NCBI RefSeq assembly: GCF_022539665.2
Contig: NC_081333.1
Coordinates: forward strand, 868,001 to 932,000
DNA length: 64,000 nt
Source: Daphnia carinata
Taxonomy: Eukaryota
Reading direction: 5' to 3'
Part shown: positions 1 to 60,680 of the stretch, in pieces
How the letters are laid out: every line of letters begins with the position of its first letter
How positions within the stretch are numbered: position 1 is the stretch's first letter
Notes under the pieces: model-generated
Database searches by the model: none
What the model was told of the DNA's origin: nothing
What the model saw: the letters and a program-made list of their open reading frames with translations, nothing else
Made by a program: the position numbers and the translations under genes

Positions 1-2415
1 AAACGAACATTCTTGGAGCGCATAATTTAAACCAATCATGTAGAAGACATGGAATAGGCTCGAATCCGAAATAGAATTGACAACTGATTTATTATACCAG
101 ATATTATACAATATACATATACCTGTGCGTGTCGGTCTGGCTTGGTTCCGGTGAAGTCTCAGTAGTAAGCAAACGCCTCCCCCGCCGAGCTGTCCGTACA
201 TAAACGCACACAACAACAACAAAAAAATGATGAAAAAAAAAAGTGGATAGCGCTGCAGGCTATCTAGCCCCAAATATTTTGAATCATAAGGCCTACGAGA
301 ACAACACCTGCGGACCTTTCAGGTCAAAGTACTTAAGAAATGACCACCATCATCTCGTCTTTTCCTATACTACTCTGCAGTAAATGGAGTTTTCAAAAAA
401 ATAAAAAAAAAAGATTTTCTTGAAAAGGAGATGGAGGGCTGTATATCAGAATATATTATCTACAATAGGAAAATTTTTGGCGAAACATGAATAGTAAAAG
501 AGTGCGTAGCGCAGCCAAAAAGCCGCCTATTATTTAAACCACAATCGACGGGTACAATCGAAAGGAATATAAGGCCTGCAGACTATAGACCTGCATTCCA
601 GATCTGGCTTTTGTGTTGATAACCTTTTAGCAAACGGAATGAAAGCTCCTTGTTGTCCAGCCCGAGTGGCGAGACGAAAGAAACCATTGCCGGACATATT
701 CTTTTTAAACATACCGCCTTTTTGTTTACTGTTGGGAAGGCCGAGTTTTGTCTTGTTAGAGCACATGCAATAAGGGAGATACAGTAGCTTTTTGCATTTC
801 ACGTGGTTTGTGGTGATCGATAAGGCTATCTAGTTCAAATGAAAATGACGTGCCTACTGGCTGTTTTGCTTCCGTGTATACATGACGGATGAACAGAGGT
901 GTCAAGTTGACAAGCACTGAGCTGGCCGTTCCGTAAAAACAAACGAAATTCGACGAGCGACGGTGATGTGATGCATCATTTCTTCACTGATTGGATGGCA
1001 CATCCATCAGTCTTAATGTGTACACCGGTGCTTCGAATGATGTGTGTCGTGCAACTAGTTTTTTAAAATTTATTTTATTGATTGACCCTACGCTTGCCAC
1101 ATACAAGAGTCGGTAGTGGGGCTCTAACGTGTAGATATAGAAATTATGGAAGAGCACCTAAAGAAAGAAAAAAAAAATGTTAGTCAGTGGCTGTCAGAGC
1201 TGGCAGCATCTCAATTACCTTGGATGAGTAAACATACTAACAACAGTGAGACGAAGATGAATTCTAAGATTGAATTTGTGAGTAGGCCACAAACTATAAT
1301 GCGTGCCCCTAGAGTCAGGCTTGGTCATCCTTGGAAGGATGTTCTATTATTGTTGTAACAACAACCGAAATGCCACAAGCGTCTTAACGATTTCTCCATC
1401 AAGAAGCTTCACTGATATTGCTGCCACATTCCTCTGTACGCTCTTGTTGATACCACTGGCAGCGTCTAAATGCCCTGGCCATTTAAGCAATCGTGCGTTC
1501 GTTCTCTAGCAATAAATGTGCCGCCGTATAGCCATGCACAGAGAAAGAGAAACAAAAAGATTAACGATCACACTTCCATATACAGGGGGAAGGAAAATAA
1601 CAAGGCAAATGATAAGGAAAATTGCCTTCAGTTATAAGCATAGTAAAAAGAAGCTGGGGATTTTCTGAACTTGTCTTCTACAACTTCCCATAATTATAGC
1701 CTGTGGCTTCAGTTCATCCTTTTCCCTCTCGTTGTCTATTTATTCTGTTAATATCGGTGCTAAAAAAGAAACACGAAAGAACGTTGCGTGGTGCTATTAA
1801 AGGGAGGATGCAACAATCTTCCAACGTGATTCTTTAGACGCCGTACACACAGCCTGTTTAGATGCACTTTTGGTTTTACTATATACCAAGGTTGTAGTTA
1901 ATTTGATTGTGTTAATCTGTTTGACTATAAATGTGTTTTATCGCGTTTGCCACTGGAGGGAAACAGTGCGAAGCCATCCAATGAGCGGAATGGTATAGGC
2001 AGAGTTAGATGTCGTATTAATGATGGCTAGCCTCGTGATCAAACATGCGGCTGTATACGTTTACGTAACGATACAGATAAAATGTGGTGGGTACGCGTTG
2101 GCGTCGCCATTGATCAACACGGAGTCATTCCCACTGTCCAAACAAAAACAATAGCCTGAAATTAGGCTGCGACAGCAAATGGTTCGTATTAAATGTTCGT
2201 TAGTATGCTCCGGGGACAACTTGATCAACGCATTTTATTCACTCATGCATCAACCACTTGAAATTTATAGTTTACGAGTAATTCTAATTCAAAGCAGTTA
2301 CGCAAAATCATTTTGATTCTATTTTATTTTAAAATTTACATAAAAAGACTATTAATATTTTATTTTGAATCAGCGTTCAAATTAGGTTATAAGAGGTTAG
2401 GTTTTATCGGCTGTA

Positions 2416-3539
2416 TCGCGCTAGCGCTGTAGTGTACTGGCGCGCCAGCAATGTGTCAAATATTCAGTGTATTTCAAAAACAATTAACTTAATGAAAAAA
2501 AAGCAATTTTCCCTGAATCAGCATGCAATTTTGACCATATCCTGTGATATTCAACCAATTCCGATGAGTGTCAGTTTTTGCAGAAAAAAATTTTAAGCCC
2601 GACTAAATAAGCCCGACTTCTCTTATTTTTTCGTTTTCTACGTTTAATTAAAAAACCATAAGGCCAATTGAAAAATAAATTTGATTTCCGTGATAAGCAT
2701 TCAATTCTGAATCGAAATCACGTTTTTTAAGCGAAATTTTAAAATTTAGCCAAAAACGAAAAAGTGCAAAGGCTATAGCCTTACCACTTCTGTCAAAATC
2801 GGCCAAAAATGACACCTCTTGGACTTCGATGAAAATCACACAGTATAATCAAAATTTAATGCTGATTTAGAAAAAGCCACTCGTTTTCTTTTGAATTTAA
2901 CCGTTTTTTAATTACCCGGAATATTCGTGCAAAAAGCTCGACTAAATAAGCCCGATTTTTCGTTCGAGTGTATATAGGAAAGTAACTAGAAATTTGACCG
3001 GTAGATGGCGATAGCAGTAAACAGAAAAACGGCCTTTTTTCTGCTTTACGCGCTATAATATTTCTGCTAATAATATTTCTGCTAATAATATTTCTGCTGC
3101 ATCACGCTAGCACTGTAGCGTACTGGCGCGCTAGCATTGCGTCAAAATTAGGTATATTTCATAAACGATTAACTTAATGAGCGTCAAAATTGAAAAAGTG
3201 AGAAGGCTATAGCCTTTTCGGCTTTACTTTTTAGTTTTAGGCTTTATTTTCACTCTTCCAATTTTCTTCAAATCCTAGATTTCATTAAAAATGAATTATT
3301 CCGATTCGAAATTGATCGCTGATCACGAAAATGGGGTATGTTTTTATATCAGGCTCTTACTTTTTGAATTAACCGTAAAAAACAGAAAGTCGGGCTTATT
3401 TAGTCGGGCTTAAAAGATTTTTTCGGTCAGTGTATGTAGAAAATTAACTAGAAACGTGACCGGTAGATGGCGATAGCTGTAAAACAGAAAAAAGCCCAGT
3501 ATTTTTTTTTTTTTATTTTGGGTGAAACGGATTGCCATA
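2416..3539. mobile_element. Mosaic of diverged direct and inverted repeats, probably non-autonomous DNA-transposon terminal remnants, ending in GTGAAACGGATTGCCATA
   Basis: Direct repeats 2416-2495 ~ 3102-3180 and 2969-3029 ~ 3431-3493. AAGCCCGACTAAATAAGCCCGA occurs at ~2595, as a variant at ~2933, and inverted at ~3388-3415. 2586-2730 is a diverged inverted copy of ~3285-3423. No coding capacity recognised. Confidence 0.55.
3055..3098. repeat. Tandem repeat of a 15-bp unit (TAATATTTCTGCTAA), ~3 copies
   Basis: Read directly from sequence. Confidence 0.85.
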
Positions 3540-3590
3540 TGGCCATCTAGCGGCCAGATTCCTATTTAATTTTCTCATTCATTCCTTCAG

Positions 3591-5248
3591 ACATAGATTG
3601 GATATGGTTACTTGAACAATGGATTTGCAAATGCAGTACAGCTGACTTATGTTTCACATGGTAAGTTGGAGATTTCCCAGGCAAAATTTCTAGTAACTCA
3701 GCATTTGGTACCATCTTTACTATAATTTTATACAGTACCCTGCATGTCTCATTAATTAAGATTTAAATCCTTTTATAGATTGTCACATCAGTGAGCAAGG
3801 TTCAGTTTAGGGATTGAGAACCCTCAGCGACTATAACATCTAGCCCATATTCACATTGTAGCACTTGATTGCTGCCACTGATTCTTCAAAATGCCTATCT
3901 TGTATGGGATGCTTGACAGTCAAATGGTACTCCGATGTCACATAAATATCAATTGTTTACTTTATTTACATTTATTAAAAATTTTTGAAGGAATGATTTA
4001 AACAAATGCCAAAGGTGAGACATGCTGGAAAAGCTTGATATGAATGTGTAGACGCAGTTTTGGAATTCAGAGGTGCAGCCGGCTGTTGGGTAAAACTTCA
4101 TTTAAATTTTGTTTCAATTCAATATGTTTTAGTTACTATTTGTGTGATTACACAAAGGATTGTGCCATCCAGGCAATGTGGATGTTCTGCCATGTACATG
4201 ATAAACCAAGGATTCTTCGTCAACAGGCAAAATGTTACTCCCTGGTAATGCTTTTCTGCTGAGTTTGTTTAGTTTTCTAATTTTAATAGTCAATGTTGTA
4301 TTAGTAAACTACTGTTGGCAGAATAGCTGATCCATTGGGAAAACGGTTATGGCAAGTGCGATGAATAAATCACCATAGGTCAGTTGTCTTGCCTTCACAA
4401 TTGCAACGAAGATGAATCATGGAGTCAAAAACATTAAAAGGCGGTACTATTTTAAATTTTTTTAATTGTTGTAATTGGTGTATCGCTAAGTGCTGATACA
4501 TGTGTAGAACATGCTGGAATTCATGTCATCCTGGAGAGGACTAAAAAAAACGAGCTTTATCCACGAAGCAGCTCATTAATCATGTCCCAAACGATTGCCT
4601 GCGTCAGCCAGCAATCTTTCAATGGCTAACAAGCATTTAATAGTTTTGAAAATCGCGGTTTGCACTCCCTAAGGCGACATTCCTTAATCCCACCTGTCAA
4701 AAGATTTGAATGCAACCATTTTCTATTCTGAACTGTCGCCTACGAAATTCTTTTTCCATAAAATGAGGTGATATGAGGTTATAATGGAAATTGTCGTCAA
4801 GACTACCGAGACCATGTACCTTCTTTACTTTCACGTTTAGTGATCAAAACAACCAACTATGTAACCTTTCTTTTTTTTTTTTTTTTAAGGTGCATGGAAC
4901 GCCCAATCGGAAAGCCCATGGAAGGTCTCTGTGGCCAACACGAAAGGTTCTCCCAAACTTTCGTATTCAAGTTTTGGCTATGATGATCATTTGCAACTGC
5001 ATAGCCTTTTAGAAGCTCCTGCCAGGAATCTACAGGAATATGGCAGATGATGAATTTATGTACTATGTAAGCCATATCAATAAGAACGTTTTATGCTTAT
5101 CTATGTTTTATTTTCTTAATTTAGATTAATAGCAATAGTGAGCCTGCAAAGGTTTCTGGTTGGGATGTGATGACGAAAAGTTATAATCATTTAAAGTACG
5201 GAATTGAATTTCCCTCCATCAGTCGCCTGTGTATTCCCGCGTATTACG
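3591..5248 (+). pseudogene. Decayed multi-exon gene of unknown family in the left arm of P1 (mirror copy on - strand in the right arm)
   Basis: Series of ag|exon|gt blocks separated by short AT-rich introns. The last two exons read ...IQVLAMMIICNCIAF*KLLPGIYRNMADDEFMYY|INSNSEPAKVSGWDVMTKSYNHL with an in-frame stop, and are homologous to exons in P2. Confidence 0.6.
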
Positions 5249-5262
5249 GTATTAATTATTTA

Positions 5263-5648
5263 AAAATTGAAGTGCATATCTGGGCTCCCTTCCTTTCCGT
5301 AGCCCCGTTTCCCCTTGACTCGTAATAAGCCCGTAGGGGGTCATGCCCCTACTGTACGGTATATATAAAAATAACATATACCGAGGTTTGGAGGGCTCTG
5401 GCCGGAAAGGGGACGTGGGGGTCCGCTTAGTCCGATGATGTGTTCACGGAGGGCGACGTGGCTACACACAAATCCGAACTAAAGGTTAATCGCTCCAGTA
5501 AAAATGTTCCAAATCTTCGGCTCTTCTTCCGGCTTCTCTTAGCCAATCACCGGGTAATCTCCCCGGTGGGTCAACAAGGCAGTGTCTCCCCCTGCCTGGG
5601 TTGACGGCAACTTTTGAAAGGGCTATTGTGCCTTTTTAAAGTTGCAAA
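5263..5648. other. Conserved GC-rich multi-hairpin core (copies at ~6603-6990 inverted, ~56631-57018, ~57930-58258 inverted)
   Basis: Stems: 5292-5299/5403-5410, 5333-5352, 5357-5383, 5548-5568, 5570-5605, 5607-5645. Near-identical between P1 and the P2 left arm although the outer arms are highly diverged. Confidence 0.75.
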
Positions 5649-5861
5649 AATAATTCTAATGTGCAGAGAATTGTCAATAAAAATTTTTTTATAAAATATT
5701 TTTTCCAAAATTTGTTTCTTTCATTGTCTGTTTTCGCTGTGTTCACACATTACGTTTATCAATTTTTTTTTTTATTTAGCTTGCTGGTGTTGGTAAGCAT
5801 TGAGCCACGTTTGATGGTAAGTAATTTTTCTATTGGTTTATCGTTTATCTGTAAGCATTCA

Positions 5862-5932
5862 TTTATTATCCAGGGATCGAACCTTGAATGTTCGGCCTTC
5901 CGCGCCGATGCTCTACCAATGAGCCATGAATC
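5862..5932 (-). ncRNA. tRNA-like unit 1 in P1 spacer (A/B-box element, not a canonical tRNA)
   Basis: Minus strand GATTCATGGCTCATTGGTAGAGCATCGGCGCGGAAGGCCGAACATTCAAGGTTCGATCCCTGG: D stem GCTC/GAGC, anticodon stem TCGGC/GCCGA, B box GGTTCGATCC; poor acceptor stem. Confidence 0.65.
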
Positions 5933-6047
5933 ATGTGATGTTAAGTTGGCTTTTTTCTAGCAACTTGCGGACTTGCATTTACATTAAGAATAAAACTGAA
6001 ATGCTATACTGCAATATTCTTTTCTACATTTAATCTGCTTCATTTTT

Positions 6048-6119
6048 ATACATCTACTGAGGTTTGAACCCTAGTTAACATGTATCGCAGCTAAAGGCTC
6101 TACCACAGAGCTATCGACC
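6048..6119 (-). ncRNA. tRNA-like unit 2 in P1 spacer
   Basis: Minus strand GGTCGATAGCTCTGTGGTAGAGC...AGGGTTCAAACCTC: A box, D stem and B box present; anticodon arm degenerate. Confidence 0.55.
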
Positions 6120-6217
6120 TTATGAAAGCAATAGACAGATAAACATATAGTTGTGAAAGACTGCATAAACATCCTAGACGATAACATATGATATGCGATA
6201 ATAAAAAAATTAGATAT

Positions 6218-6287
6218 GTCTCGTGGCTCAATGTTAGAGCATCGGCATTGCACGCTGAATGTCTGGGGATCAGTTCCACTACGAGCA
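6218..6287 (+). ncRNA. tRNA-like unit 3 in P1 spacer (TGC in the anticodon loop, degenerate T arm)
   Basis: GTCTCGTGGCTCAATGTTAGAGCATCGGCATTGCACGCTGAATGTCTGGGGATCAGTTCCACTACGAG: CTCGT/ACGAG, GCTC/GAGC and TCGGC/GCTGA stems; inverted homologue of unit 1. Confidence 0.55.
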
Positions 6288-8703
6288 AAATAAAATACAA
6301 ATGTAAATTACTTCAGAAAATCTCGAGGTATTACACGTTGTTCCTTGAATCTAAATTGAAGAATTCAAAGAGTGTAATAAATAACAATTGAATACTTACA
6401 CATAAATGATAAATTTGTGGGAATAATGCATACCTCACGGTGGCAAAAACAATAAAGATGAATTGAGCAAGCTAAATAAAAAAAAAATTGATAAACGTAA
6501 TGTGTAAACACAGCGAAAACAGACAATGAAAGAAACAAATTTTGGAAAAAATATTTTATAAAAAAAATTTTATTGACAATTCTCTGCACATTAGAATTAT
6601 TTTTGCAACTTTAAAAAGGCACAATAGCCCTTTCAAAAGTTGCCGTCAACCCAGGCAGGGGGAGACACTGCCTTGTTGACCCACCGGGGAGATTACCCGG
6701 TGATTGGCTAAGAGAAGCCGGAAGAAGAGCCGAAGATTTGGAACATTTTTACTGGAGCGATTAACCTTTAGTTCGGATTTGTGTGTAGCCACGTCGCCCT
6801 CCGTGAACACATCATCGGACTAAGCGGACCCCCACGTCCCCTTTCCGGCCAGAGCCCTCCAAACCTCGGTATATGTTATTTTTATATATACCGTACAGTA
6901 GGGGCATGACCCCCTACGGGCTTATTACGAGTCAAGGGGAAACGGGGCTACGGAAAGGAAGGGAGCCCAGATATGCACTTCAATTTTTAAATAATTAATA
7001 CCGTAATACGCGGGAATACACAGGCGACTGATGGAGGGAAATTCAATTCCGTACTTTAAATGATTATAACTTTTCGTCATCACATCCCAACCAGAAACCT
7101 TTGCAGGCTCACTATTGCTATTAATCTAAATTAAGAAAATAAAACATAGATAAGCATAAAACGTTCTTATTGATATGGCTTACATAGTACATAAATTCAT
7201 CATCTGCCATATTCCTGTAGATTCCTGGCAGGAGCTTCTAAAAGGCTATGCAGTTGCAAATGATCATCATAGCCAAAACTTGAATACGAAAGTTTGGGAG
7301 AACCTTTCGTGTTGGCCACAGAGACCTTCCATGGGCTTTCCGATTGGGCGTTCCATGCACCTTAAAAAAAAAAAGAAAGGTTACATAGTTGGTTGTTTTG
7401 ATCACTAAACGTGAAAGTAAAGAAGGTACATGGTCTCGGTAGTCTTGACGACAATTTCCATTATAACCTCATATCACCTCATTTTATGGAAAAAGAATTT
7501 CGTAGGCGACAGTTCAGAATAGAAAATGGTTGCATTCAAATCTTTTGACAGGTGGGATTAAGGAATGTCGCCTTAGGGAGTGCAAACCGCGATTTTCAAA
7601 ACTATTAAATGCTTGTTAGCCATTGAAAGATTGCTGGCTGACGCAGGCAATCGTTTGGGACATGATTAATGAGCTGCTTCGTGGATAAAGCTCGTTTTTT
7701 TTAGTCCTCTCCAGGATGACATGAATTCCAGCATGTTCTACACATGTATCAGCACTTAGCGATACACCAATTACAACAATTAAAAAAATTTAAAATAGTA
7801 CCGCCTTTTAATGTTTTTGACTCCATGATTCATCTTCGTTGCAATTGTGAAGGCAAGACAACTGACCTATGGTGATTTATTCATCGCACTTGCCATAACC
7901 GTTTTCCCAATGGATCAGCTATTCTGCCAACAGTAGTTTACTAATACAACATTGACTATTAAAATTAGAAAACTAAACAAACTCAGCAGAAAAGCATTAC
8001 CAGGGAGTAACATTTTGCCTGTTGACGAAGAATCCTTGGTTTATCATGTACATGGCAGAACATCCACATTGCCTGGATGGCACAATCCTTTGTGTAATCA
8101 CACAAATAGTAACTAAAACATATTGAATTGAAACAAAATTTAAATGAAGTTTTACCCAACAGCCGGCTGCACCTCTGAATTCCAAAACTGCGTCTACACA
8201 TTCATATCAAGCTTTTCCAGCATGTCTCACCTTTGGCATTTGTTTAAATCATTCCTTCAAAAATTTTTAATAAATGTAAATAAAGTAAACAATTGATATT
8301 TATGTGACATCGGAGTACCATTTGACTGTCAAGCATCCCATACAAGATAGGCATTTTGAAGAATCAGTGGCAGCAATCAAGTGCTACAATGTGAATATGG
8401 GCTAGATGTTATAGTCGCTGAGGGTTCTCAATCCCTAAACTGAACCTTGCTCACTGATGTGACAATCTATAAAAGGATTTAAATCTTAATTAATGAGACA
8501 TGCAGGGTACTGTATAAAATTATAGTAAAGATGGTACCAAATGCTGAGTTACTAGAAATTTTGCCTGGGAAATCTCCAACTTACCATGTGAAACATAAGT
8601 CAGCTGTACTGCATTTGCAAATCCATTGTTCAAGTAACCATATCCAATCTATGTCTGAAGGAATGAATGAGAAAATTAAATAGGAATCTGGCCGCTAGAT
8701 GGC

Positions 8704-8835
8704 CATAGCTGTAAAAAAGAAAAAAAAGGCCAAAATTTTATTTTTTTTGGGGGGGTAAAACGGATTGCCATACATAGCTGTAAAAAAGAAAAAAAAGGCC
8801 GAAATTTTTTTTTTTAGGGTAATCGGATTGCCATA
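8704..8835 (+). repeat. Two tandem ~65 bp terminal units, each ending CGGATTGCCATA
   Basis: CATAGCTGTAAAAAAGAAAAAAAAGGCC..T-tract..GGGTAA(AA/T)CGGATTGCCATA at ~8704-8772 and ~8773-8835; similar to 3472-3539. Confidence 0.8.
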
Positions 8836-9125: not shown

Positions 9126-9862
9126 ATGGCTGCAGTACAAATTGGTAAACTTGCATCGGTTCTTGCTCGTTGCTTGCCTTCAGACGTGAAGAACGCTACG
9201 AAATTCAAAGTAAAGCTAGTGGAATTTGACCAAAATTTAAATATGGTAAGTTCTTTCATTTATTTCAAAAATTTTATATTTATTTTCAAGCTGATTTATG
9301 TTCATAGCACTTTGCCAAACATGTGACAGTTTATGCAAGTGATCCAACCAATGCATGCAAACCTGGTGATGTTGTTTTGATTGATAAGTTACCTAAAAAG
9401 CTTACAAAGCACATTACCCATCAAGTTAAAAAGGTAATATCATACATATCAAGTAAACAATTATCTGTTTCAGCACCATAACTAATTCTTTGTAGATTGT
9501 TTACACCTTTGGTGATATAACAGACCCAATTACAGGAAAGAAAGTTGTTGTTGGAAAATATCGGTATGCTATTTAATCCTTATAGGTCTTATTTTTGTAC
9601 ATTACAAACAAATTAATAATTTCTCTGTTTACAGTGATGAAATTGAGGCAAAAAATGTTCTGTATGGGAAAAACCCATCTGGATTTGACTATGACAGGTT
9701 ACCTTTACTTCTCCATTACATTATATTGCATTTTGTGTTAACACATATTGATTATTCAGGGCCCAGGACAGGGGATGGCAGGCTGGAAAGAGAGATTTCT
9801 CTGATAAAGAAACTTATAGAAAGTTTCATATGTTTGATCATGATGAGCCATATGCAGTGTAG
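9126..9862 (+). CDS. mRpS17: Mitochondrial ribosomal protein S17 (uS17m), 5 exons: 9126-9245, 9308-9433, 9496-9563, 9635-9697, 9760-9862
   Basis: Spliced translation MAAVQIG...EFDQNLNM|HFAKHVTVYASDPTNACKPGDVVLIDKLPKKLTKHITHQVKK|IVYTFGDITDPITGKKVVVGKYR|DEIE...; CKPGDVVLI and GDITDPITGK are typical of mRpS17; all introns GT-AG and in frame. Confidence 0.92.
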
Positions 9863-10050
9863 TAGAAGATTTTGTGGACATCTTTATGTCAGTTAACATA
9901 ATAAAAACAGTCATGTTGTGTTTTATGTTTATTATTGTAGTATAACAAGTACACAATGATTTCGTCAGGTACATCTCTTCAACCATTCTGTTTTGGCTGA
10001 GATCAGATTAGAATTTCATGGAGAGGCTTTTGAGGGAAGGGAACTAAAAC

Positions 10051-12971
10051 TCAATCTTCTTCACTTAAGAATTCTCGCTCGAGAGCCTGACCAGCTAAAC
10101 ATAGTTCTGAATCTTCTGGTTCTTCATCTGTTTCTAAATCCTCAACTTCTGGCTCGTTGTCGTCTTCGTCGTCAGGATCATCGACGTCAACTTCAAGGTC
10201 AGGAATATCTTCACCTCTTCGAAATTTTGTCATGAGTGAATCGTTTTCTGGACTGTCTTGTTCAATCACTTCACCAATTACTAAATCGTGATCTGCTACT
10301 TCCAGCTTCCGTTTTCGGGAAGGCGATTCATCCCTGTCTATTTTGAAGAATAATATGAATGTACAGTTATGCGTTTACAATTATTATTTTTATGAAGACG
10401 AAACAATTAGGATTCTTACTTGGTACAGTTTCAGTTTTATCGTCGTTCTCTTCCGTTATGAAATTCATAGGCTCTACTTCTTCGTCGGTCTCACCTCCTT
10501 CCATATCTTGCAAGATATCTTCGACTTCACGATCCATGTCAGCAATTTCGTCGGTCGACAGTGAAAGCAGGGGGTTAACAGTTTCGCTAAATCTCTTTTG
10601 AGTCTGAAATAAACGAAACATTTGTGAGAAAATAACAAAACGTATAGGTAAAAGATGAAATACATTTGAATTGCGAGACGTAGCCAACGTTTTCCCTTTA
10701 TCGCTTTTCTTTGGTTGACGAAAAACTCTTTTTCCTGTTACCCGGTCGTAATACGGAACTGCAGCGTCTTGTTCTTCTTTGCCGCTCGCGGCAATTGCCA
10801 ACTGAAAAGCAACATCTGGACTGGTGCAGTGGGCAGGAGGCTTCCGCCGAACTGTTACCAATTCCGAGTTGAGAGGATAAAGTCGCTCTTCCACACGCTC
10901 CCACCGCTCTGCACATGACCACAGCCAATCAGGAGTCACTACTCGAATATGTTTGTACTTCTTGGCTTCAATTAACTATTGAGAAATGCAACTTTTATAA
11001 CAATAAGTAAAGTAAACAAAATCACGAAATTACTTTGGCGGTTCCTAGCCTTGCTGCAATTACGTGAGTAGTAGTTTCAGACACTCTGTCCATGATGATT
11101 GCTCCAAGACTTTTTGCTACCAAATATGGTTTGCTTTTCTCCAAAGAGGTGTTTGTGGGCACAACACCACTGAAAACTATGTGCACATCTTCAAGAACCT
11201 TACGGCGGACATAAGGTAAGACAATTTTCATGTCCGGTACTGCTTTTGTTTCTTTCTTTCTGTTATCGTCGTACAGTTCGTAGTATGCATGATGAATGGT
11301 GCGCAATATGTCTTGTAGATGAAGGAGATAATCGTCTGTGTCACGAATGTGAATTTTATCACTTTCTGATTTTTCTTTTTCCTGATTATCACCCTCATCC
11401 AGCACTTTTTTATCCGTTTCATTCAAAACAGGTTTTTCCGCGTCCTCTGTTCCTTTTGTTTGCGTCTCTGATGCTTCTTTCGTTGCTGTTTCTTTTGGGT
11501 CTTCAGTTAACTCACTCGTACTCACTAGAACTTCGTCATTTAGCTTTGTCTCTTCATAACTGCTTGGGGTTTCGGTAGCGTAATTATCGGGTTTATTCTC
11601 ATCTTCAACAGGGGTTCCACCGTCAACGTTCGAATCATCGGGAGCCGTTTGAGGTTTTTCTTTTTCCTCTTCAGCATTTTTCGGCGCAGAGCCGTTTACT
11701 ACTTTAGGAGTAGATGCCTCGAGCGAATTTTCTCCCGACTTTAAGGAAGCAAAGTCAAAACCTTCCTTATCATCTTTTTCTTGCTTTGCCAATCCTGGGG
11801 GAGCGTTTATGTCTCCAGTGTGTTGAAAAAAATGGTACGGACGGACGTGTATCAAATTCGGCGCAAAATTCCACACGTCTTCTCTATCGTCAATGATGAC
11901 AACCATGTGGTCTCCACAAGGAAACAAAGCTCTAGAAATAAATCAACAAAATTAAACGGGCATGAGTTTCATGAAAAATTATAAAGTTTCCTAATGCTTA
12001 TGGTAATACTTGAGATTCGCAGTTTTGGAGTGCGCACTGAAGCATTCATCTCGAGATAAAATTCGATGGGAAAAGTACCGGCCTTCTTCATCGAGGAAAT
12101 TTGCAATCATGTGGGCGTACGTGCGTGAGCCGAAGGTGCATATGTGAAGCTCATAGAGAGAACTAATGTTTGAGAGTAACTGCTTGGTGAAGGGTCTAAG
12201 ACGCGTGTGATACCACGGTGAAGTAGGTCCATGTAGTTGAAAGTGAAAAACATCCTATAGAAAAAAAACCCTGTTTAGATAACATGAAAGATTCCAGCAA
12301 AGACACTTATACCTCAATATTGGGAGGGATCTCATCATTGGTAGTGTGAATCAGAGTTTGATCCAAATCTACTAGTAAAACTAGTTTTCTGTCTCGAAGA
12401 AGCCGTTCTTCATCTGCTTTACCCAACTGAGTGGCTTCCTATTCAAACAATTCAAAAAATTGAAAATAAATGACTGTTTTAATTTTTTGTTAATCCTACC
12501 TTCATGCTGACCATCAGTTCGGGAATGTTATGAACCATGGCAACAGCAGCGGTCTGGCTTCTCTGATTGGTTTCACGCAAATCTGCTCCACATTCTGCAC
12601 ACATATCTTTCATGACTGTTGGATGACTACAGTTGCTGTATTCCAAAATCTGTGCTCTACGAAAAAATAATGTGTAAAAAAGGCAAACAAAACGGTAGAA
12701 AAAATAAATACCCTTGGTCAATAACATTCCCTTCTTTTATATAGAGCTTTTCCAACAACCCAGCCGAAGTGGCGCGAACAACAAATTTACTGGGGCCATT
12801 GCTAACTGAATTGTTCGCATTTTCATTCTCACGACTACGGATTTCTTCGGGTTCAAATTGAAACAGAATTTGCCCAATAGTAATATGAGAACCTTCTTTA
12901 ACTTTAATTTTTACTACTTTAGCACGATAATTTTCTGAAAAAAATAATGATTCGCGTTGGGTCGCCGCCAT
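10051..12971 (-). CDS. CTDP1: RNA polymerase II CTD phosphatase FCP1, ~8 exons (12971-12712, 12656-12500, 12438-12313, 12254-12010, 11931-11034, 10975-10664, 10603-10420, 10337-10051)
   Basis: CSHPTVMKDMCAECGADL; HAD motif LVDLDQTLIHT; FPCGDHMVVIIDDREDVW; BRCT domain (IVFSGVVP...VTPDWLWSCAERWERVEERLYPL); acidic C-terminus. Splice sites assigned by eye. Confidence 0.95.
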
Positions 12972-13448
12972 TGTTTGTTGATGAAAATATTTCTCCAAGC
13001 TGCCGGCAGGGGTTGGGCAAGAACTAGGAAAGCTATCTGGAAGAAGGCCATAGGGCAAGCTAGGGACAGCCCCGATCGACAGCGATCCGACCCGACCCAA
13101 AAATTAAGAGCCCACACAGCAGACGAAGTTCTGATCGGTTTCCTAGTTTCGGATGTTGAAGTTGACTTGAGTTTCGCGAACCAAGGCTGACGTAACTAAC
13201 TAGCCAACTTCTTTTTTCACAAAACAGGAAAATTGTTAAAAATTTTTTTTTTGTTTCGTTACCAATCCTCCACAATTTTTTGTTCGCTGAAGTCCCCTTC
13301 GACCGTTTGACTATAAGAGTGAAACGAAAGCAACACCTCCCGCTTTTCTAGCGAACCCAAGATCTAGTGAACGAAATAGTATACAATAGAGGTGGTTCAT
13401 CACATAATTACAACACTAAACAAAGCAACGTGAAAACCCCATAAAGGA

Positions 13449-14594
13449 ATGCGTCATTTCTCCTATATGTTCTCGTCCATGCCCCGGTTATCATGCTTTC
13501 TCCGTCAAACAAAATCGACGGCAAGATTATACAGCTCAAACAACCATGTATTTCATATTCCAGTTATGCACAAGGAAGTTCTTACCATATTTGACCCTCA
13601 AGATGGTCAAAAGTTTCTTGATATGACATTTGGTGCTGGAGGACATACCAGAAAGTTGCTAAGTTCATCTAACAATGCAACAATTTATACCTTGGATAGA
13701 GATCCTTTTGCGTACGACCTTGCTATAAAATTAGCGAGTGTAACAACAAATGGCAATATTTTTCCGTTATTAGGAAAATTCAGTGATTTACCGGAACTTA
13801 TGTCAGATACCGAAGTGGACAATTTTTTTGACGGAATACTTATTGATTGTGGTTGCTCATCTATGCAGTATGATATGAAAGAAAGAGGTTTCTCTTTGAG
13901 TAAAGATGGACCGTTGGACATGCGTATGGACCAGGATAGGTTAGCCAATCAACCGTCCGCAAAAGACATTTTAGCACACATCGACGAAGACAGTCTCGCC
14001 CGCGTATTAAAAATCTACGGGGAAGAAAAACAAGCGAAGAAAATTGCGAGAGCCATTGTTGAAGCGAGATATTTATTCACAAGTCTTAATACAACGCATG
14101 AATTGGCGCAACTAGTAGAGAGTGCCTGTGGATTTAGTTCTCGTACGGATAAATTACAACGGTCAAGTCACGTGGCCACCAAAACTTTTCAGGCACTGAG
14201 AATTCTTGTCAACGACGAACTCAATGAGCTCGACTTCGCTGTGAGATTCGCACATCGAGCTCTGAAAATCGGCGGGAAATTAATTACAATCACCTTCCAT
14301 TCGTTGGAAGATCGGTAATTATGTTTGAACTAGTATTGTAATAAAATTTGTTTGCAATGGTTTTCTTATTACAGGATAGTGAAGAATCATCTTCATGACC
14401 TAGATTACTCAACCGACAGTGAACAAAAGTACAAAAACTATGCCAGACATCTTGACCCGTTGGACGTTCAGGTTCTCATGGAACGGCAATGGCTGGCAAT
14501 CAACAAACACGTCCTTACGCCTACTGACGAAGAAATCAATGAAAATCCACGTAGTAGATCCGCAAAACTAAGAGCAGCAATAAAGCTCCGATAA
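13449..14594 (+). CDS. METTL15: Mitochondrial 12S rRNA m4C methyltransferase (RsmH/MraW family), 2 exons 13449-14314 and 14375-14594
   Basis: HIPVM, DMTFGAGGHT, DCGCSSMQ, RGFS..DGPLDMRMD, ATKTFQALRI.VNDEL, ITFHSLEDR|IVK, NPRSRSAKLR; N-terminal basic presequence-like segment. Confidence 0.95.
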
Positions 14595-15035
14595 ACCTGG
14601 ATGGTTTAGTCTAATTTAAGTCCATGAATTTGTTTTTATTTGAATGGAATCGATGGCTGACAACTCATTCGAAAACCACGAAATATATTGAAATGAATAT
14701 CTTTCTTTTAGGTAACTAGTCAATTTAGAAGCATAGACTCCATTCTTTACGCAAATTCGAGGAATAACGGAAACGAAAAAAACTGTATTAAACTTTAATA
14801 GTTGTGCTATGAACGATTTTATAATAATACTTGTGCTGTGAACAATTGTATAATAATACTGGTGTTGTTGCAACACCAGCATGTATACAAGCAAAACAGT
14901 AATTCTTTAAAGAAAAATCCGGCCAGAACGGTTCCAATTTCAGTTGATTATTCGTTTGCGGACAACAGAAAAAAAACCCAAAGATGCTCACGAATATTGA
15001 CCAGTTGGTATGAAGCATTTTTGTCACAATGACTA

Positions 15036-15761: not shown

Positions 15762-15894
15762 GTTCAGATTATGTAAAGAGTAACGAATTGTTCTTCGATA
15801 TTCAACTGGTTTGCAACATGCTTGTCATGCCGGCATTAAACTATGGGTAGATTGCTTTCTTATCTAGCTTCTAGCCGGGAGTAGCGTTTTGTAT

Positions 15895-40260: not shown

Positions 40261-40316
40261 AAAAAAAGAGAAAAGAAAAGTGATGTTTGTTTTGTGATTA
40301 TGTGCATCAGCTCCAA

Positions 40317-53730: not shown

Positions 53731-54760
53731 GTAGCTCAAGTTACTCTGTTGGCGTTACTACTCCCGATATACTCACGGTAGTGTTATGGCCGCGACGGAT
53801 TTTCCATTCACTAAAGAAGCGAGTTTAGATGTCAAATGTGTGCAACAAATACTTCCAAGCGGTTGGTAAAGAATGCATGATGGAAACGTTCGGTTTCTCG
53901 TTGAATTATTTCAATTAATTGGCTAGCCCGTCCCAAAAATAAGATTTTTTTTTTCTTTAAAAACCATTATTAAATTGCATTAAGGGACATGAAATAAATA
54001 TCAATATGATAGTGCTGGCGATTAAATTCGCATATGGTATGAACTAGAGGTATTCTTTCATGAATATACATGTAGTAGGGCTACAGGAACTCATCGCATG
54101 ATTAAAATATCGCCAACGTAAACACGAAGAACGTATTAGACTAAGTACCGTATGGAACTGTCATCCGCGTTTGTTAAAATCCTATATCCTAATACAAATT
54201 ATTAAAGCACGACTTACGTAGTCCCACATTCTTCCGTTAGATGCTTGTGGAATCCATTGTTATTAAAAGTGCTGTCACGTTTAGCCTTCAGCTTCTTCCA
54301 GCTTTTCGTATTATTCCATGTAAGTTACTAAGGCTAAAGATATCAAGAGCGACAAGCTAACGAAGATGTTAAATTTGCGTATTTTGCCTTAAAAATATGA
54401 CTAGTTTTGTTGTAAATAGATGATATTTGAAACCAAGGTATGGGAGTTCCCTATGCCTTAGTTGAAACTACTTTCAAAACTTTTATGAAGCGATTTAACG
54501 TTTGTTTGCAACAGCTTACTTTTACCAATAAGCAAAAATCGTTAACCATGTAAAAGAGCACATAGCTCATTTTTTAGTTTTTTTAAATTCTCATTTCCGG
54601 ATTCATTTTCGGTCTGAAAAAATCGAATAGCTCCTCGACCATTGATCAGCGAGAAAAAAGATTCATATTTTCTTGATCCTCGTGAAATTTGGGGTCGAAT
54701 CCATGTGTCAGCTCTAAATACCCGAAAATCGTCGAAAATCGCAAATTTTCATTTTCAACT

Positions 54761-55154
54761 ACGCGTTATTCTCCATCCACGCTACTGAACTAACTGCGAA
54801 TGGCATCCAATGGACTGAAATTGCCTACGCCAGTAATAACGAGTCTGAGCGGTAGATGGCTACGTGTCGGAAAAAAAGAAAAAAGTGTGATCTTTTTTTT
54901 TTTTTTTTGGCGAAATTTTTTTTTTTTTTTTTTTTTGTGTAAAACTATGGCAATATGGCAATCTATTATGGCAATCCGTTTTACACAAAAAAAAAAAAAA
55001 AATTCCGCCAAAAAAAAAAAAAAATCACACTTTTTTCTTTTTTTCCGACACGTAGCCATCTACCGCTTAGACTCGTTATTACTGGCATAGGCAATTTCAG
55101 TCCATTGGATGCCATTCGCAGTTAGTTCAGTAACGTGGATGGAGAATAACGCGT
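54761..55154. repeat. Small palindrome P0: ~180 bp arms (54761-54945 / 54978-55154) with three TATGGCAA copies in the loop
   Basis: Mirror ORFs 54790-55059(-)/54800-55090(+); a few substitutions between arms; TATGGCAA at 54946, 54954, 54967. Confidence 0.9.
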
Positions 55155-55841
55155 GGCTGGAGGAACAATTGAAAAATGGATAAGATAATACAACAAAAGG
55201 ATGGTAAGTATAAACATTATTATATTGGTTTTCAATTATTAATTATTGTTTATTAGATCAAATTATGAAGCTGTAGGCCCAATTATTGGAACAACCCAAA
55301 ATATTAGATAACAGCAAAGCTAAGGATGGTAAGGCCTAATATGTAATGATTCTATTTATTTGCTTTTATTCATTTGTGTTTTGTAGCTCAAATTTTGAGT
55401 CTACAAGCTCAGCTAGGGGAAAAGAACAAATTGGAACGGAACAGTTTCCAAACAGTGAAGGAGGTTTTTCAAAACTCTTCCCTAACTGAACGTGAGGATG
55501 AATTGGCATTAGGCGAACACAGTCAGGTACCTAAACGTTTCAAATAAGAATTCAAAATAAGTATAGAATTTTAACAAACAATTATTTATTGTTTAGTTAT
55601 TCAGTCTACCACCTGACAGTGTGTTAAAGTTAAATTCTGTTAGTGCTGCAGTAAAAGAATTGTTAGTAATAAGTCCATGCAGCGAAGGAAATGAACAATT
55701 GTGGGACCGTATTTGGGCTGAAAATGGGTGTGGTACGGAAACCCAGAAATAGCATGAGTTCAACATAAAACATGAAGTAGGTACTTTTCGGTTTTTTGTC
55801 TATTGAAAAAGTATTTTTAATGCTATTATTTTGCATTCACA

Positions 55842-56618
55842 GAATTTTAGTGGGGGATCAAGTCAAGTCTGGAAGTGTTACAGGATGGAAGAGTGAGCCT
55901 ACAGTTGAAAAACACTGAAAGTGCATTACCATTAAGGTATGAGGTAAAGTAATAGAGTATGCAAATTGTCGAATGAGAAGTACCATCTTGTGTGAATGAA
56001 TCCTGTGTAACAGCAATCCTTTATAGTTCTGTCACAGCTAGAAGCCTCAAATAATTCTGCCTCTCTTGCTAAAGAACAACTTGTCCTTTACATTCAGAAT
56101 GTTGGTGAAGCTAGGTACTTAAATGGCCCTAAAGATGTTTCATTTCATTGGCATTGCAGCGATGAACATCATACATGGACTTTTTAGGTATGAAAGGAAT
56201 TTTCTTGAAAATATTTTGAATTTATGACAAAGCATTTCTCCTCCTTTTTGCCAACCATGTCTAATCTACAAAAAAAAATTATCCAATAGGAAAGGATTTT
56301 CAGCATACTGGGAACACAACTATCAACAATGCAACATTCTACGGGTGTTATTTTATCATTCAAGAGCCTTGTACAATGATTTTCATCTACAATTTGTATG
56401 GCCTTTCCCAAGCTTCTGTCAGAAGTTGAATCTATGAGTCATGTAAGTCACATGAGCAACAATTGAGATGCTTAATGGTGTTGTTTTTCTTTTCTCAGTG
56501 TAGGTTAATAGTAACATTGGATCTGAAAAAATTCGTGGTTGGGGCATGACACTGAATAAATTATAATGATTGGATGGATGACATGATATTTCTATACTTC
56601 ATTCGGATTCCCGAGACG
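55842..56618 (+). pseudogene. Decayed multi-exon gene in the P2 left arm, homologous to the P1 arm gene (further exon-like blocks at 55155-55780)
   Basis: ...IQEP(C/Y)TMIFI(Y/C)N/CMAFPKLL(S/P)EVESMSH|VNSNIGSEKIRGWGM...; same phase-0 intron position as in P1; frameshifts present. Confidence 0.6.
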
Positions 56619-57213
56619 GTATTTTATATTTAAAAAATTGAAGTGCATATCTGGGCTCCCCTCCTTTCCGTAGCCCCGTTTCCCCTTGACTCGTAATAAG
56701 CCCGTAGGGGGTCATGCCCCTACTGTACGGTATATATAAAAACAACATATACCGAGGTTTGGAGGGCTCTGGCCGGAAAGGGGACGTGGGGTGCCGCTTA
56801 GTCCGATGATGTGTTCACGGAGGGCGACGTGGCTACCCACAAATCCGAACTAAAGGTTAATCGCTCCTGTAAAAATGTTCCAAATCTTCAGCTCTTCTTC
56901 CGGCTTCTCTTAGCCAATCACCGGGTAATCTCCCCGGTGGGTCAACAAGGCAGTGTCTCCCCCTGTCTGGGTTGACGGCAACTTTTGAAAGGGCTATTGT
57001 GCCCTTTTAAAGTTGCAAAAATAATTGTAATGTGCAGAGGATTGTCAATAAAATTTTTTTTATAAAATATTTTTTGCAAAATTTGTTTCTTTCATTGTCT
57101 GTGTTCACACATTACATTTATCAACTTTTTTTTTGCTTTGCTTTATTTGTTTTTGTCACTTTTGATGGTAAGCATTGTTTCCATCGGTTTATCATTTATC
57201 TGTAAGCATTCTA

Positions 57214-57637
57214 TTATTATCCAGGGATCGAACCCTGGATGTTCGGCATACCGCGCCGATGCTCTACCAATGAGCCATGAATCCTGTTACGACAAATTGG
57301 CTTTTTTCTAGTCACTTGTAGACTTGCATTTACACTTAGAATAAAACTGAAATGCAATTCTGCAAAATACTCTTCTACATTTACTCTACTTCATTTTTAC
57401 ACATCTACTGAGGTTTGAACCCTGGGTAACAGGTATCGCAGCTAAAGTCTCTACCACAGAGATAATAACCATATAAAAGCAAAAGAAAGATATACATATA
57501 AATGTGAAAGATTGCATGAACATCCTAGACGATAACATATGATATGCGATAATAAAATGTTAAGATATGTCTCGTGGCTCAATGTTAGAGCATCGGCGTT
57601 GCACGCTGAATGTCTGGGGATCGGTTCCCATACGAGT
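57214..57637. ncRNA. Three tRNA-like units in the P2 spacer (57214-57284 -, ~57400-57470 -, 57569-57637 +)
   Basis: Same order and orientation as the three P1 units, with stems retained. Confidence 0.6.
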
Positions 57638-59464
57638 GAAACAAAATACAAAATTACTTCAAAAAATATCCAGATATTACACGTTGTTCCTTGAATCTAA
57701 GTTGAAGAATTCAAAGAGTGTAATAAATAATAATTGAATGCTGACAGATAAACGATAGACCAATGGAAACAATGTTTACCATCAAAGGTGACAAAAACAA
57801 ATAAAGCAAAGCAAATAAAAAAAAGTTGATAAATGTAATGTGTGAACACAGACAATGAAAGAAACAAATTTTGCAAAAAATATTTTATAAAAAAAATTTT
57901 ATTGACAATCCTCTGCACATTACAATTATTTTTGCAACTTTAAAAGGGCACAATAGCCCTTTCAAAAGTTGCCGTCAACCCAGGCAGGGGGAGACACTGC
58001 CTTGTTGACCCACCGGAGAGATTACCCGGTGATTGGCTAAGAGAAGCCGGAAGAAGAGCTGAAGATTTGGAACATTTTTACAGGAGCGATTAACCTTTAG
58101 TTCGGATTTGTGGGTAGCCAGGTCGCCCTCCGTGAACACATCATCGGACTAAGCGGCACCCCACGGACCAAGCATGACCCCCTACGGCCTTATTAGAAAT
58201 TTAGGGGAAACGGGGCCTCAGAAAGAAGGGAGCCCAGATATGCACTTCAATTTTTTAAATATAAAATACCGTCTCGGGAATCCGAATGAAGTATAGAAAT
58301 GTCATGTTAACCATCCAATCATTGCAATTTATTCAGTGTCTTGCCCCAACCAAGAATCTTTTCAGATCCAATGTTACTATCAACCTATACTGAGAAAAGC
58401 AAAACACCATTAAGCATCTCAATTGTTGCTCATGTGACTTACATGACTCATAGATTCAACTTCTGGCAGAAGCTTGGGAAAGGCCATACAAATTGCAGAT
58501 GAAAATCATTGTATAAGGCTCTTGAATGATAAAATAGCACCCGTAGAATGTTGCATTGTTGATAGCTGTGTTCCCAGTATGCTGAAAATCCTTTCCTATT
58601 GGATAAATTTTTTTTTGTAGATTAGACATGGTTGGCAAAAAGGAGGAGAAATGCTTCGTCATAAATTCAAAAATTTTTCAAGAAAATTTCTTTCATACCT
58701 AAAGAGTCCATGTATGATGTTCATCGCTGCAATGCCAGCGAAGTGAAACATCGGTAGGGCCATTAAAGTACCCAGCTTCACCAACACTCTGAACGTTAAG
58801 GACAAGTTTTTTGTTCTTTAGCAAGAGAAGCAGAATTATTTGAGGCTTCTAGCTGTGACAGAACTATAAAGGATTGCTGTTATACAGGATTCATTCACAC
58901 AAGATGGTACTTCTCATTAGACAATTTGCATACTCTATTACTTTACCTCATACCTTAACGGCAATGCACTCTCAGTGTTTTTTCAACTGTAGGCTCACTC
59001 TTCCATCCTGTAACACTTCCAGACTTGACTTGATCCCCCGCTAAAATTCTGTGAATGTAAAACAATAGCATTAAAAATACTTTTTCGATAGACAAAAAAC
59101 CAAAAAGTACCTAATCCATGTTTGATGTTGAGCTCATGCCGTTTCTGGGTTTCCGTACCACACCCATTTTCGGCAGACTTTATGGCAATATTAATCAAAG
59201 CCACACGTCCCACTATGAAATGGATGTTGAAAAGCAAATAAAAACCTGTTGAGATGGATATCAGGAGAATCAGAATAGATCTCAATCAACTTCAGTTATT
59301 CCCTTCCCTATAGTACTTAGTGACATAGAAGAGAAGACCTAAAATGCAAAGGTAAAAATATTGGGCATAATTGCAGTTTACCAAGCATAGTAGCAAAATA
59401 AAATAATTATCAAAGAAAAACATATGCACACTTGGGTTGCCGAATGGGTAAGTTTGATGCAAAC

Positions 59465-59482
59465 TATGGCAATCCGTTTTAC
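59465..59482 (+). repeat. Terminal motif TATGGCAATCCGTTTTAC
   Basis: Identical to 54967-54984 and the reverse complement of 8755-8772. Confidence 0.85.
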
Positions 59483-59799
59483 ACCCCCCCCCCCCATTGA
59501 CTACGCCAAATGGGTTCTTGCTTATCGGATCCTTTAATCGATTTTCGAAAGGCCAAACGATATTCGTTCCGAAAAAACGCAACTAAAGACGCACTGGTTT
59601 TCCGACATCATCGTTGAATTTCGATTCAAAATCATGGGTTTTTATAGCAATCCAGATTTCTGAGAAAATAAGTAAAGACAAAGTTAAGCTTGTTTTTTGT
59701 TTGAATCTGACTGAACTGGATTTTACCTAGATGGCGACACATGATGTCTTTGAAGAGGAGGAGCCTGTGTCTGTCACATCACGAGTCACGTCACGGGAA

Positions 59800-60505: not shown

Positions 60506-60549
60506 TGCGTTGCTAAACGTAAAAAAAAATATTAATATAATTATAAAAA

Positions 60550-60608: not shown

Positions 60609-60680
60609 TACACTATTCCATTGCTTCATAAGCTACCTATTTCAATGGGTGACACCCAAAGCAAAATTTGTTTGGGATGT

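What the first reader, a model, noticed from the sequence alone, without database searches (positions are those of the whole stretch)
4890..5248. Arms of both palindromes carry a homologous protein-coding gene of unknown family with a purifying-selection signature
Seen: P1 atg atg atc att tgc aac tgc ata gcc ttt tag aag ctc ctg cca aligns with P2 (right arm, reverse complement) atg att ttc atc tgc aat(t) tgt atg gcc ttt ccc aag ctt ctg cca, with differences concentrated at third positions (att/atc, aac/aat, tgc/tgt, ctc/ctt). A shared phase-0 intron follows, then INSNSEPAKVSGW versus VNSNIGSEKIRGW (agc/agt, aat/aac, aag/aaa synonymous). Both copies are now disrupted by stops or frameshifts. 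Inference: this is the element's own protein. The terminal GW..x..Y loosely recalls the C-terminal G(H/W)...Y box of tyrosine recombinases, but the spacing is short and no HxxR is evident, so the family is unassigned.
Basis: partly seen in the sequence, partly recalled or inferred. Interest (0 to 1): 0.78.

Follow-up and report, generated by a model that had tools for sequence, protein, structure and literature searches.

The report
Decayed exons in Daphnia palindromic element
Two mirror-image repeat elements in a water-flea genome share a pair of spliced exons that do not read as an intact protein and show no firm sign of selection, so they are likely the decayed tail of a passenger gene on a likely mobile palindromic element, not the enzyme that moves it.

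Summary
The homology is real: the last two exons and their intron align between palindromes P1 and P2 (z 4.9, 10.5, 3.5), and run X1 holds contigs lacking seven P1 introns. The purifying-selection claim is not supported. Third-position changes are 27 of 63 (p 0.04, 0.11 over three frames). Synonymous codons are 7 of 39 (p 0.29). Exons (64-69%) are no better kept than the intron (68%). Simulations reject dN/dS of 0.2 or less and fit about 0.5-1. One residual hint: the P1 frame has one stop in 117 codons (p 0.007-0.02). No protein relative or HxxR was found. The ORF that is intact in relatives lies upstream in P2: a Daphnia carinata family of 84 short proteins that end before these exons. The best-kept part is a non-coding 380-nt core (97.6%), also found beside unrelated DNA in L001. 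Both palindromes share a ~100-nt end starting TATGGCAATCC. Verdict: a likely non-autonomous foldback-type element; the flagged exons are a decayed tail; the mobilising enzyme is unidentified.

The parts
3538..5785 (+). P1 left arm; carries an inward-pointing spliced transcription unit
   Evidence: 99.6% to the right arm; 13 differing columns, mostly in a T-run and at the loop edge
6466..8707 (-). P1 right arm, mirror copy of the left arm
8696..8835 (-). P1 outer end: ~75-nt terminal unit that reads TATGGCAATCC...GCCATCTA inward and ends at 8772, followed by a tandem second copy to 8835
   Evidence: 4 X1 contigs and 1 X2 contig break off at 8772 into other flanks (table 7)
3529..3549 (.). Head-to-head junction: the end of a flanking element and the P1 left arm share one TA; the left arm lacks its outer terminal unit
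   Evidence: sequence
3779..4815 (+). P1 upstream exons 3779-3926, 3991-4089, 4158-4244, 4305-4443, 4508-4815; no open frame; no detectable homology to P2
   Evidence: X1 joints (three of them seen on the mirror arm); 17-20 stops per frame over the whole spliced unit and z -1.2 to 1.4 against P2
4915..5066 (+).
5067..5124 (+).
5125..5262 (+). Flagged last exon, diverged part (68-70% to P2); open in P1 to a double stop at 5323, stopped after 20-21 codons in P2
5263..5640 (.). Conserved non-coding GC-rich core: 369 of 378 identical to P2, 89 of 101 identical to L001 over its first ~100 nt; an AATAAA follows at 5676
   Evidence: folding z -2.2 (+) and -3.6 (-), weaker in L001 (z about -1)
5786..6465 (.). 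Central loop (86% to the P2 loop) with three related tRNA-like units: 5870-5926 (-), about 6050-6125 (-), 6217-6288 (+)
   Evidence: Rfam tRNA at 24.9 bits, below the cut-off of 29, for two of them; 67-70% alike; A/B box pattern at 5926; ARAGORN finds none
54967..57220 (+). P2 left arm, starting with the same terminal unit (120 of 155 aligned bases identical to the P1 end)
55176..55909 (+). P2 short ORF on five exons (N-terminal long helix in a low-confidence model); two premature TAGs here (codons 16, 132); intact in many Daphnia carinata copies; splice sites inferred from the proteins
56297..56622 (+). P2 homologues of the flagged exons and intron, about 390 nt downstream of where the annotated proteins end
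57727..59174 (-). P2 right arm, truncated at its outer end; 73 substitutions in 1444 aligned bases against the left arm
54756..55159 (.). Small palindrome: mirror copy of the first ~190 nt of P2, centred on short repeats of the terminus

Best explanation
The flagged stretch is the last two spliced exons of an inward-pointing transcription unit in each arm of a multi-copy palindromic element; they are likely the decayed, now non-coding tail of a passenger gene, and the element is likely moved in trans by a transposase that would recognise its shared ~100-nt ends. Anatomy of each arm, outside to inside: terminal unit, spliced gene with an exchangeable 5' part, shared tail exons, conserved 380-nt core, and a loop with three tRNA-like units. 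SHOWN: homology, intron removal in X1 contigs, no open spliced frame, shared ends, a sharp boundary at 8772, high copy number. INFERRED: (1) X1 is RNA. (2) The tail was once coding (average dN/dS about 0.5-1). (3) The palindrome arose by fold-back or head-to-head duplication of a one-armed unit, which puts the same end on both sides and makes a transposase substrate. (4) Arms are kept alike by gene conversion or re-formation. (5) The enzyme is a DDE transposase encoded elsewhere; IS3EU/GingerRoot type fits the TA...TA ends best, and a Tc1/mariner type with a TA duplication also fits.
For: Identity is flat across exon, intron and downstream sequence (64, 68, 69, 70%) and jumps to 97.6% in the non-coding core. 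dN/dS of 0.2 or less is rejected (P at most 0.007 on synonymous-codon share, at most 0.045 on third-position share); 0.5-1 fits. X1 variants: 5 of 12 synonymous against a null of 3.0 (p 0.15); 21 variants in the exon upstream split 8/7/6 by position modulo 3; 5 of 7 listed indels are 1 nt. The spliced P1 unit has 17-20 stops per frame. None of 45 fetched proteins holds the flagged peptides. A phmmer search of the P2 frame covering the first flagged exon matched only residues 1-60; the P1 exon found no candidate. Copy number: 84 D. carinata sequences in 12 clusters, on contigs of 9 different lengths. Five of 40 listed sequences belong to two consecutively numbered loci, as two arms would give. 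The terminus recurs 5 times exactly in the window (7 with one mismatch, against 0.69 expected). X1 joints place the terminal unit inverted at the left end of other copies of the flanking element (table 5). TA...TA ends, 100-150-bp inverted repeats and intron-bearing gene fragments are reported for GingerRoot (PMC6839031, passages).
Against: No target-site duplication could be tested, because each copy here has one altered end. No transposase was found in or near the elements. A D. magna survey lists IS3EU at 0.00% (D. pulex 0.05%; PMC8594854, passages). The frame is more open than chance (p 0.007-0.02), and neutrality is mildly disfavoured in the chosen frame (p about 0.03), so an intact master copy is not excluded. 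Only two diverged copies and a cut list of X1 variants (40 of 65 rows shown) were available. The orientation of the paired D. carinata loci was not seen. The role of the core and the tRNA-like loop is unexplained.
Confidence: 0.58

Rival explanations
1. The exons were never coding. They are the spliced 3' untranslated or long non-coding part of the arm transcript, and the codon trend is chance plus frame picking.
For: Synonymous-codon tests p 0.23-0.29, best-of-three p 0.77-0.84. Exon identity equals intron identity. Annotated P2-type proteins all end upstream. No synonymous excess after 5182 (0 of 12).
Against: 1 stop in 117 codons in P1; 1 stop against 9 and 12 in the other frames. Third-position share 0.43 against 0.33-0.34 expected at neutrality (p about 0.03). 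Two introns downstream of a stop are unusual in ordinary mRNAs (own knowledge).
Confidence: 0.2
2. The exons are the worn C-terminal box of a tyrosine recombinase (Crypton-like). The element family moves by site-specific recombination at its TATGG ends, and the head-to-head junctions are recombination or hairpin-resolution products.
For: The ends start TATGG, the majority terminus of CryptonS (PMC3212892 section 7). P1 has an Arg 23 residues before the GW tryptophan and a Tyr 7 after it (the reference spacing is recalled, not tested). The first Atlas hit of the P2-family protein is an oomycete cluster with 63% GCR1_C, the CryptonF C-terminal domain, at 0.77, below the 0.9 bar. End-to-end junctions occur at 3529-3549 and 54756-55159.
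Against: No HxxR: the position reads GIYR and falls in a 21-nt stretch that P2 lacks. No recombinase profile in Pfam, PHROGs or NCBIfam and no PDB sequence match. Pfam finds no GCR1_C. Cryptons are described without terminal inverted repeats, whereas these ends are inverted. In CryptonF the GCR1_C domain is C-terminal; here the candidate lies upstream of the flagged exons. Strong selection is rejected.
Confidence: 0.12
3. Not a transposon: a young host gene family amplified as small palindromes by break-induced fold-back and kept alike by arm-to-arm gene conversion, as on Y chromosomes.
For: Many intact short ORFs in D. carinata. A D. magna protein shares 43 residues (67%) in a different architecture. 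Palindrome-mediated conversion is known (PMC7953838, passages). The TAGATGGC motif in the ends also occurs near a host gene start (15898, 15997).
Against: The same terminus sits on unrelated flanking elements (3529, 59465). There is a sharp boundary with different flanks. Copies are dispersed over many chromosome-sized contigs. Protein C-termini are ragged (16 different endings among 41).
Confidence: 0.1

Closest known systems
Foldback DNA transposons (Drosophila FB, Galileo, Tetris; PMC4079207, passages)
   Same: Very long inverted arms make up most of the element; copies lack a conserved ORF and appear non-autonomous; ends are shared with smaller elements.
   Different: Arms here hold a whole spliced transcription unit, not tandem repeats. 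The best-kept part is an inner non-coding core next to a tRNA-like loop. No target duplication has been shown.
IS3EU/GingerRoot DNA transposons (PMC10045372 and PMC6839031, passages)
   Same: TA...TA termini, inverted repeats of about 100 nt, carriage of intron-containing gene sequence.
   Different: No integrase-like transposase found; the 6-bp duplication is untested; the palindromic body is not described for them in the passages read.
Crypton tyrosine-recombinase transposons, CryptonS and CryptonF (PMC3212892 sections 5-8 and passages; PMC9977147 passages)
   Same: TATGG at the termini (CryptonS); a weak GCR1_C lead in the P2 protein; a GW followed by Tyr.
   Different: No HxxR and no recombinase profile; ends are inverted rather than short direct repeats; CryptonS is reported from stramenopiles.
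D. carinata uncharacterized protein family (e.g. LOC130690270, LOC130703669) and D. magna OUZ56_012804
   Same: The P2 upstream ORF is 83-92% identical over the 60-residue query to the D. carinata family; 43 residues are shared with the D. magna protein.
   Different: None extends into the flagged exons. The D. magna protein continues into a domain whose Atlas look-alikes are unnamed animal proteins, some in HECT-bearing clusters.

Membership tests
Protein-coding gene under purifying selection | Open reading frame after splicing | tested here: not met
   17-20 stops per frame in spliced P1; in P2, three stops precede the flagged exons by codon 144. Local openness of 117 codons with 1 stop in P1.
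Protein-coding gene under purifying selection | dN/dS well below 1 | tested here: not met
   pN/pS 0.59-0.62 uncorrected; synonymous codons p 0.23-0.29; 0.2 or less rejected, 0.5-1 compatible.
Protein-coding gene under purifying selection | Exons better conserved than the adjacent intron | tested here: not met
   64% and 69% against 68%.
Protein-coding gene under purifying selection | Intact copy or relative in protein collections | tested here: not met
   (105-2000 aa only, word-based, weak for distant relatives). No genome was available for tblastn.
Tyrosine recombinase (Crypton/DIRS type) | HxxR of the R-H-R-Y tetrad upstream of the C-terminal box | tested here: not met
   No H..R in the spliced flagged frame; GIYR at W-26 to W-23, in a stretch absent from P2.
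Tyrosine recombinase (Crypton/DIRS type) | Catalytic Tyr shortly after the G(H/W) box | tested here: inconclusive
   Tyr at W+7 in P1; in P2 only in another frame; reference spacing recalled.
Tyrosine recombinase (Crypton/DIRS type) | Match to recombinase profiles or solved structures | tested here: not met
   Pfam, PHROGs, NCBIfam, PDB sequences; exons were scanned separately, so sensitivity is low.
Crypton | Short terminal direct repeats and no terminal inverted repeats | tested here: inconclusive
   Ends are inverted, but they start TATGG and the minus-strand P1 is followed by another element's TATGG at 3539.
Crypton | GCR1_C domain (CryptonF) | tested here: inconclusive
   Atlas 0.77, lead only; Pfam negative; model pLDDT 47.9, not searched.
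IS3EU/GingerRoot | TA...TA termini with inverted repeats of about 100-150 bp | tested here: met
   The TA could instead be a Tc1/mariner-type duplication.
IS3EU/GingerRoot | 6-bp target-site duplication | tested here: inconclusive
   No copy in the window has two unaltered ends.
IS3EU/GingerRoot | Integrase-like DDE transposase in the element or an autonomous partner with the same ends | not testable with these tools
   None in these copies; no whole genome held.
Foldback element | Long inverted arms covering most of a non-autonomous element | tested here: met
   Arms of 2.25 kb around a 0.68-kb loop.
Foldback element | Insertion polymorphism or target duplication showing mobility | not testable with these tools
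   Indirect only: different flanks after 8772; 84 dispersed protein sequences.
Penelope-like retroelement | Reverse transcriptase and hammerhead ribozyme repeats | tested here: not met
   No hammerhead pattern in P1 or P2; no ribozyme among the Rfam hits; no RT in Pfam scans.

The most novel reading that the evidence does not exclude
A new kind of eukaryotic mobile unit. A conserved structured core and a tRNA-like loop are the functional heart, the outer spliced genes are exchangeable cargo, and a tyrosine-recombinase or telomere-resolvase-like enzyme (of which the flagged exons are a relic) processes the TATGG ends. That would give head-to-head junctions at both ends of the unit, as a linear hairpin-ended replicon would.
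Probability: 0.08. Interest if true: 0.82.

Novelty: new variant of a known kind. Interest (0 to 1): 0.4.

Why it matters
The flagged protein claim does not hold up, so it gives no handle on a new enzyme. The element around it does matter. It appears to account for at least 84 'uncharacterized proteins' in the D. carinata annotation, which would inflate gene-family counts. Its best-conserved part is non-coding and survives next to unrelated DNA in a metagenome contig. Gene-bearing palindromes are rare in surveyed parthenogenetic animals (at most 19 per genome; PMC7953838, passages), so a family of dozens would be a natural test system for arm-to-arm gene conversion. I found no description of this element in ten literature searches (result listings only). 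Repbase and Dfam could not be searched, so it may already be catalogued there.

Tried and rejected
No whole genome is held, so tblastn for intact copies was impossible. No RNA holder was listed: X1 is labelled 'DNA?', and its RNA nature is my inference from intron-skipping contigs. X4 (same sample label) laid nothing, and X2 and X3 held only 5 and 3 small pieces. The X1 depth dip at the loop centre (5996-6226) is not used as evidence. Pfam on 21 frames of both arms gave only chance-level hits. L001 frames gave nothing in Pfam and nothing in Rfam. Rfam on the core gave nothing credible. The core pattern was absent from viral contigs and prokaryote genomes; the P2 protein family was absent from viral contigs. 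AlphaFold models were unusable: P0045 pLDDT 37.2, A1 47.9; no fold search was run on them. PDB sequence searches were empty or chance-level. Consensus folds of three core sequences gave 5 of 64 (minus strand) and 2 of 68 (plus strand) doubly changed pairs, too few sequences to judge. A polymerase III transcript of the whole core is doubtful: several runs of 4-5 T lie between the tRNA-like units and the core. The sigma-70 scan is irrelevant for an animal. An HSLRR in the upstream exon (about 4665-4680) lies over 100 codons from the GW, in a frame with stops, and was rejected as the HxxR. Whole-length homology of P1 and P2 was rejected. The giant-microRNA paper (PMC12553114, passages) and the Hydractinia paper (PMC11934779, passages) did not bear on this element. 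Earlier findings of the scan: nothing relevant. No supplements were read; the Crypton and IS481EU supplements hold termini and alignments that may bear on the family assignment.

Full report
Setting. The window is gene-rich animal DNA with short introns. An exon of palindrome P2 is 83-92% identical to Daphnia carinata proteins, so the host is that species or a close relative. No whole genome is held. P1 has arms 3538-5785 and 6466-8707 (99.6%). P2 has a left arm from 54967 to 57220 and a truncated right arm 57727-59174 (93-97%).

Checking the observation. The quoted codons and the shared phase-0 intron are there. Against 500 shuffles, exon 4915-5066 scores z 4.9, exon 5125-5250 z 10.5 and the intron core z 3.5; the five upstream exon pairs score -1.2 to 1.4. 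Run X1 holds contigs that skip seven P1 introns, including the flagged one. The tool labels X1 'DNA?'. I infer RNA because the skips follow splice sites and a contig starts near the 5' end of the neighbouring host gene with no difference over 254 nt.

Testing the selection claim. Over 178 aligned sites the 63 mismatches fall 17/19/27 on codon positions (p 0.04 in the chosen frame, 0.11 for best of three). Uncorrected pN/pS is 0.59-0.62, against 0.85-1.13 in the other frames. A simple codon simulation rejects dN/dS of 0.2 or less, fits about 0.5-1, and mildly disfavours 1 in the chosen frame (p about 0.03). Identity is flat across exon, intron, exon and downstream (64, 68, 69, 70%). Among X1 variants, 5 of the 12 listed in these exons are synonymous (p 0.15), and 5 of 7 listed indels over 4500-5270 are 1 nt (40 of 65 variant rows were shown). 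In favour of past coding, the P1 frame has one stop in 117 codons (p 0.007, 0.022 for best of three, end point chosen after the fact), and the aligned codons hold 1 stop against 9 and 12 in the other frames. So a vestigial ORF is plausible, but a selection signature is not shown.

Looking for the protein. The P1 exon found no candidate among proteins of 105-2000 residues. A phmmer search of a 281-residue P2 frame that includes the first flagged exon matched one protein, at residues 1-60 only. Pfam, PHROGs, NCBIfam and PDB sequences gave nothing. The ORF that is intact in relatives lies upstream in P2: 84 D. carinata sequences in 12 clusters, 114-179 residues among those fetched, on contigs of nine lengths. 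Five of 40 listed sequences are shared by two consecutively numbered loci; I infer that these are the two arms of other palindromes. All end by about 55909, some 390 nt before the flagged exons, and none of 45 fetched proteins holds the flagged peptides. A profile of the family matches spliced P2 (E 5e-91) and not spliced P1. One D. magna protein shares 43 residues and continues into another domain.

What the element is. P1 and P2 differ in their 5' gene parts but share, outside to inside: a terminal unit starting TATGGCAATCC (120 of 155 aligned bases), the tail exons, a non-coding core (369 of 378) and a loop (86%) with three related tRNA-like units. The first 100 nt of the core also occur in metagenome contig L001 (89 of 101) beside DNA with no detectable similarity to P1 or P2, so the constraint acts on the core at nucleotide level. 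The terminus occurs 5 times exactly in the window, also on unrelated flanking elements. X1 contigs break off at its last base into different flanks, and other joints place it inverted at the far end of the flanking element. End-to-end junctions occur at 3529-3549 and 54756-55159.

How it most likely works (inferred). A one-armed unit was duplicated head to head around the imperfectly self-complementary loop. That gave a 5-kb palindrome with the same end on both sides, which a transposase encoded elsewhere could move. Arms stay alike by conversion or re-formation. Each arm is transcribed inward and spliced, probably ending near the AATAAA at 5676. Outer gene parts are exchanged or decay, and the flagged exons are a shared, decayed tail. 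TA...TA ends, inverted repeats near 100 bp and intron-bearing cargo match GingerRoot/IS3EU, and the body matches foldback elements. No target duplication could be tested, no transposase was found, and IS3EU is listed at 0.00% in D. magna. Confidence 0.58.

Rivals. Never coding (0.20). Relic tyrosine recombinase (0.12): CryptonS ends are mostly TATGG, P1 has Arg at W-23 and Tyr at W+7 (reference spacing recalled), and the P2 protein's first Atlas hit is a GCR1_C cluster at 0.77. Against this, HxxR is missing, that stretch is absent from P2, profiles are negative, and Cryptons lack inverted ends. Host gene family in conversion-maintained palindromes (0.10).

Literature seen: passages of PMC10045372, PMC6839031, PMC4079207, PMC7953838, PMC8594854, PMC9977147, PMC11934779 and PMC12553114; passages and sections 5-8 of PMC3212892; no supplements. 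Ten searches (listings only) showed no description of this element; Repbase and Dfam were not searchable.

Verdict. The flagged gene is a decayed tail without demonstrated selection or family. The surrounding palindromic element is an apparently undescribed variant of non-autonomous foldback-type elements, and its conserved core and tRNA-like loop are the part worth following. Interest 0.40.

Noticed in passing
window 5263-5640 and L001 about 740-1150: The non-coding core is the most conserved part of the element and recurs in a metagenome contig next to unrelated, possibly spliced DNA; no Rfam family; strand and function unknown.
   Followed up: partly
window 5786-6465 and 57140-57830: Each loop holds three related tRNA-like units; two of them (5870-5926 and 6217-6288) point outward into opposite arms, and the first matches an A/B box pattern. 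The P2 copies of these two fold more stably than the P1 copies.
   Followed up: partly
window 2400-3539: Two nested or tandem small elements with internal inverted modules; the second ends in the same terminus as P1. X1 joints suggest other copies have that terminus inverted at both ends.
   Followed up: partly
window 59465-61070: Another element starts with the same terminus and carries short GC-rich repeats (59800-60300), a tRNA-like unit at 60688 and a three-copy tandem repeat near 60970-61070.
   Followed up: no
window 54756-55159: Small palindrome at the P2 outer end whose centre is a run of partial copies of the terminus, like a repair or hairpin-opening scar.
   Followed up: partly
window 15898, 15997, 23316, 46175, 51021: TAGATGGC occurs 12 times against 0.8 expected, in the element ends and just upstream of at least one host gene; possibly a Daphnia promoter or insulator motif.
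   Followed up: no
window 9128-15800 and 40284-41897: Ordinary host genes flank the elements. Names from my own recognition of the translations, untested: mitochondrial ribosomal protein S17, CTD phosphatase FCP1, METTL15/RsmH, TIP30, four-jointed. P1 ends about 300 nt upstream of the first.
   Followed up: no
protein P0045 (D. magna), residues 55-215: Unnamed domain with Atlas look-alikes in cnidarians, sponges and chordates (0.92-0.93), some in HECT-bearing clusters, with weaker ubiquitin-like fold matches; fused to a segment shared with the P2 ORF.
   Followed up: partly
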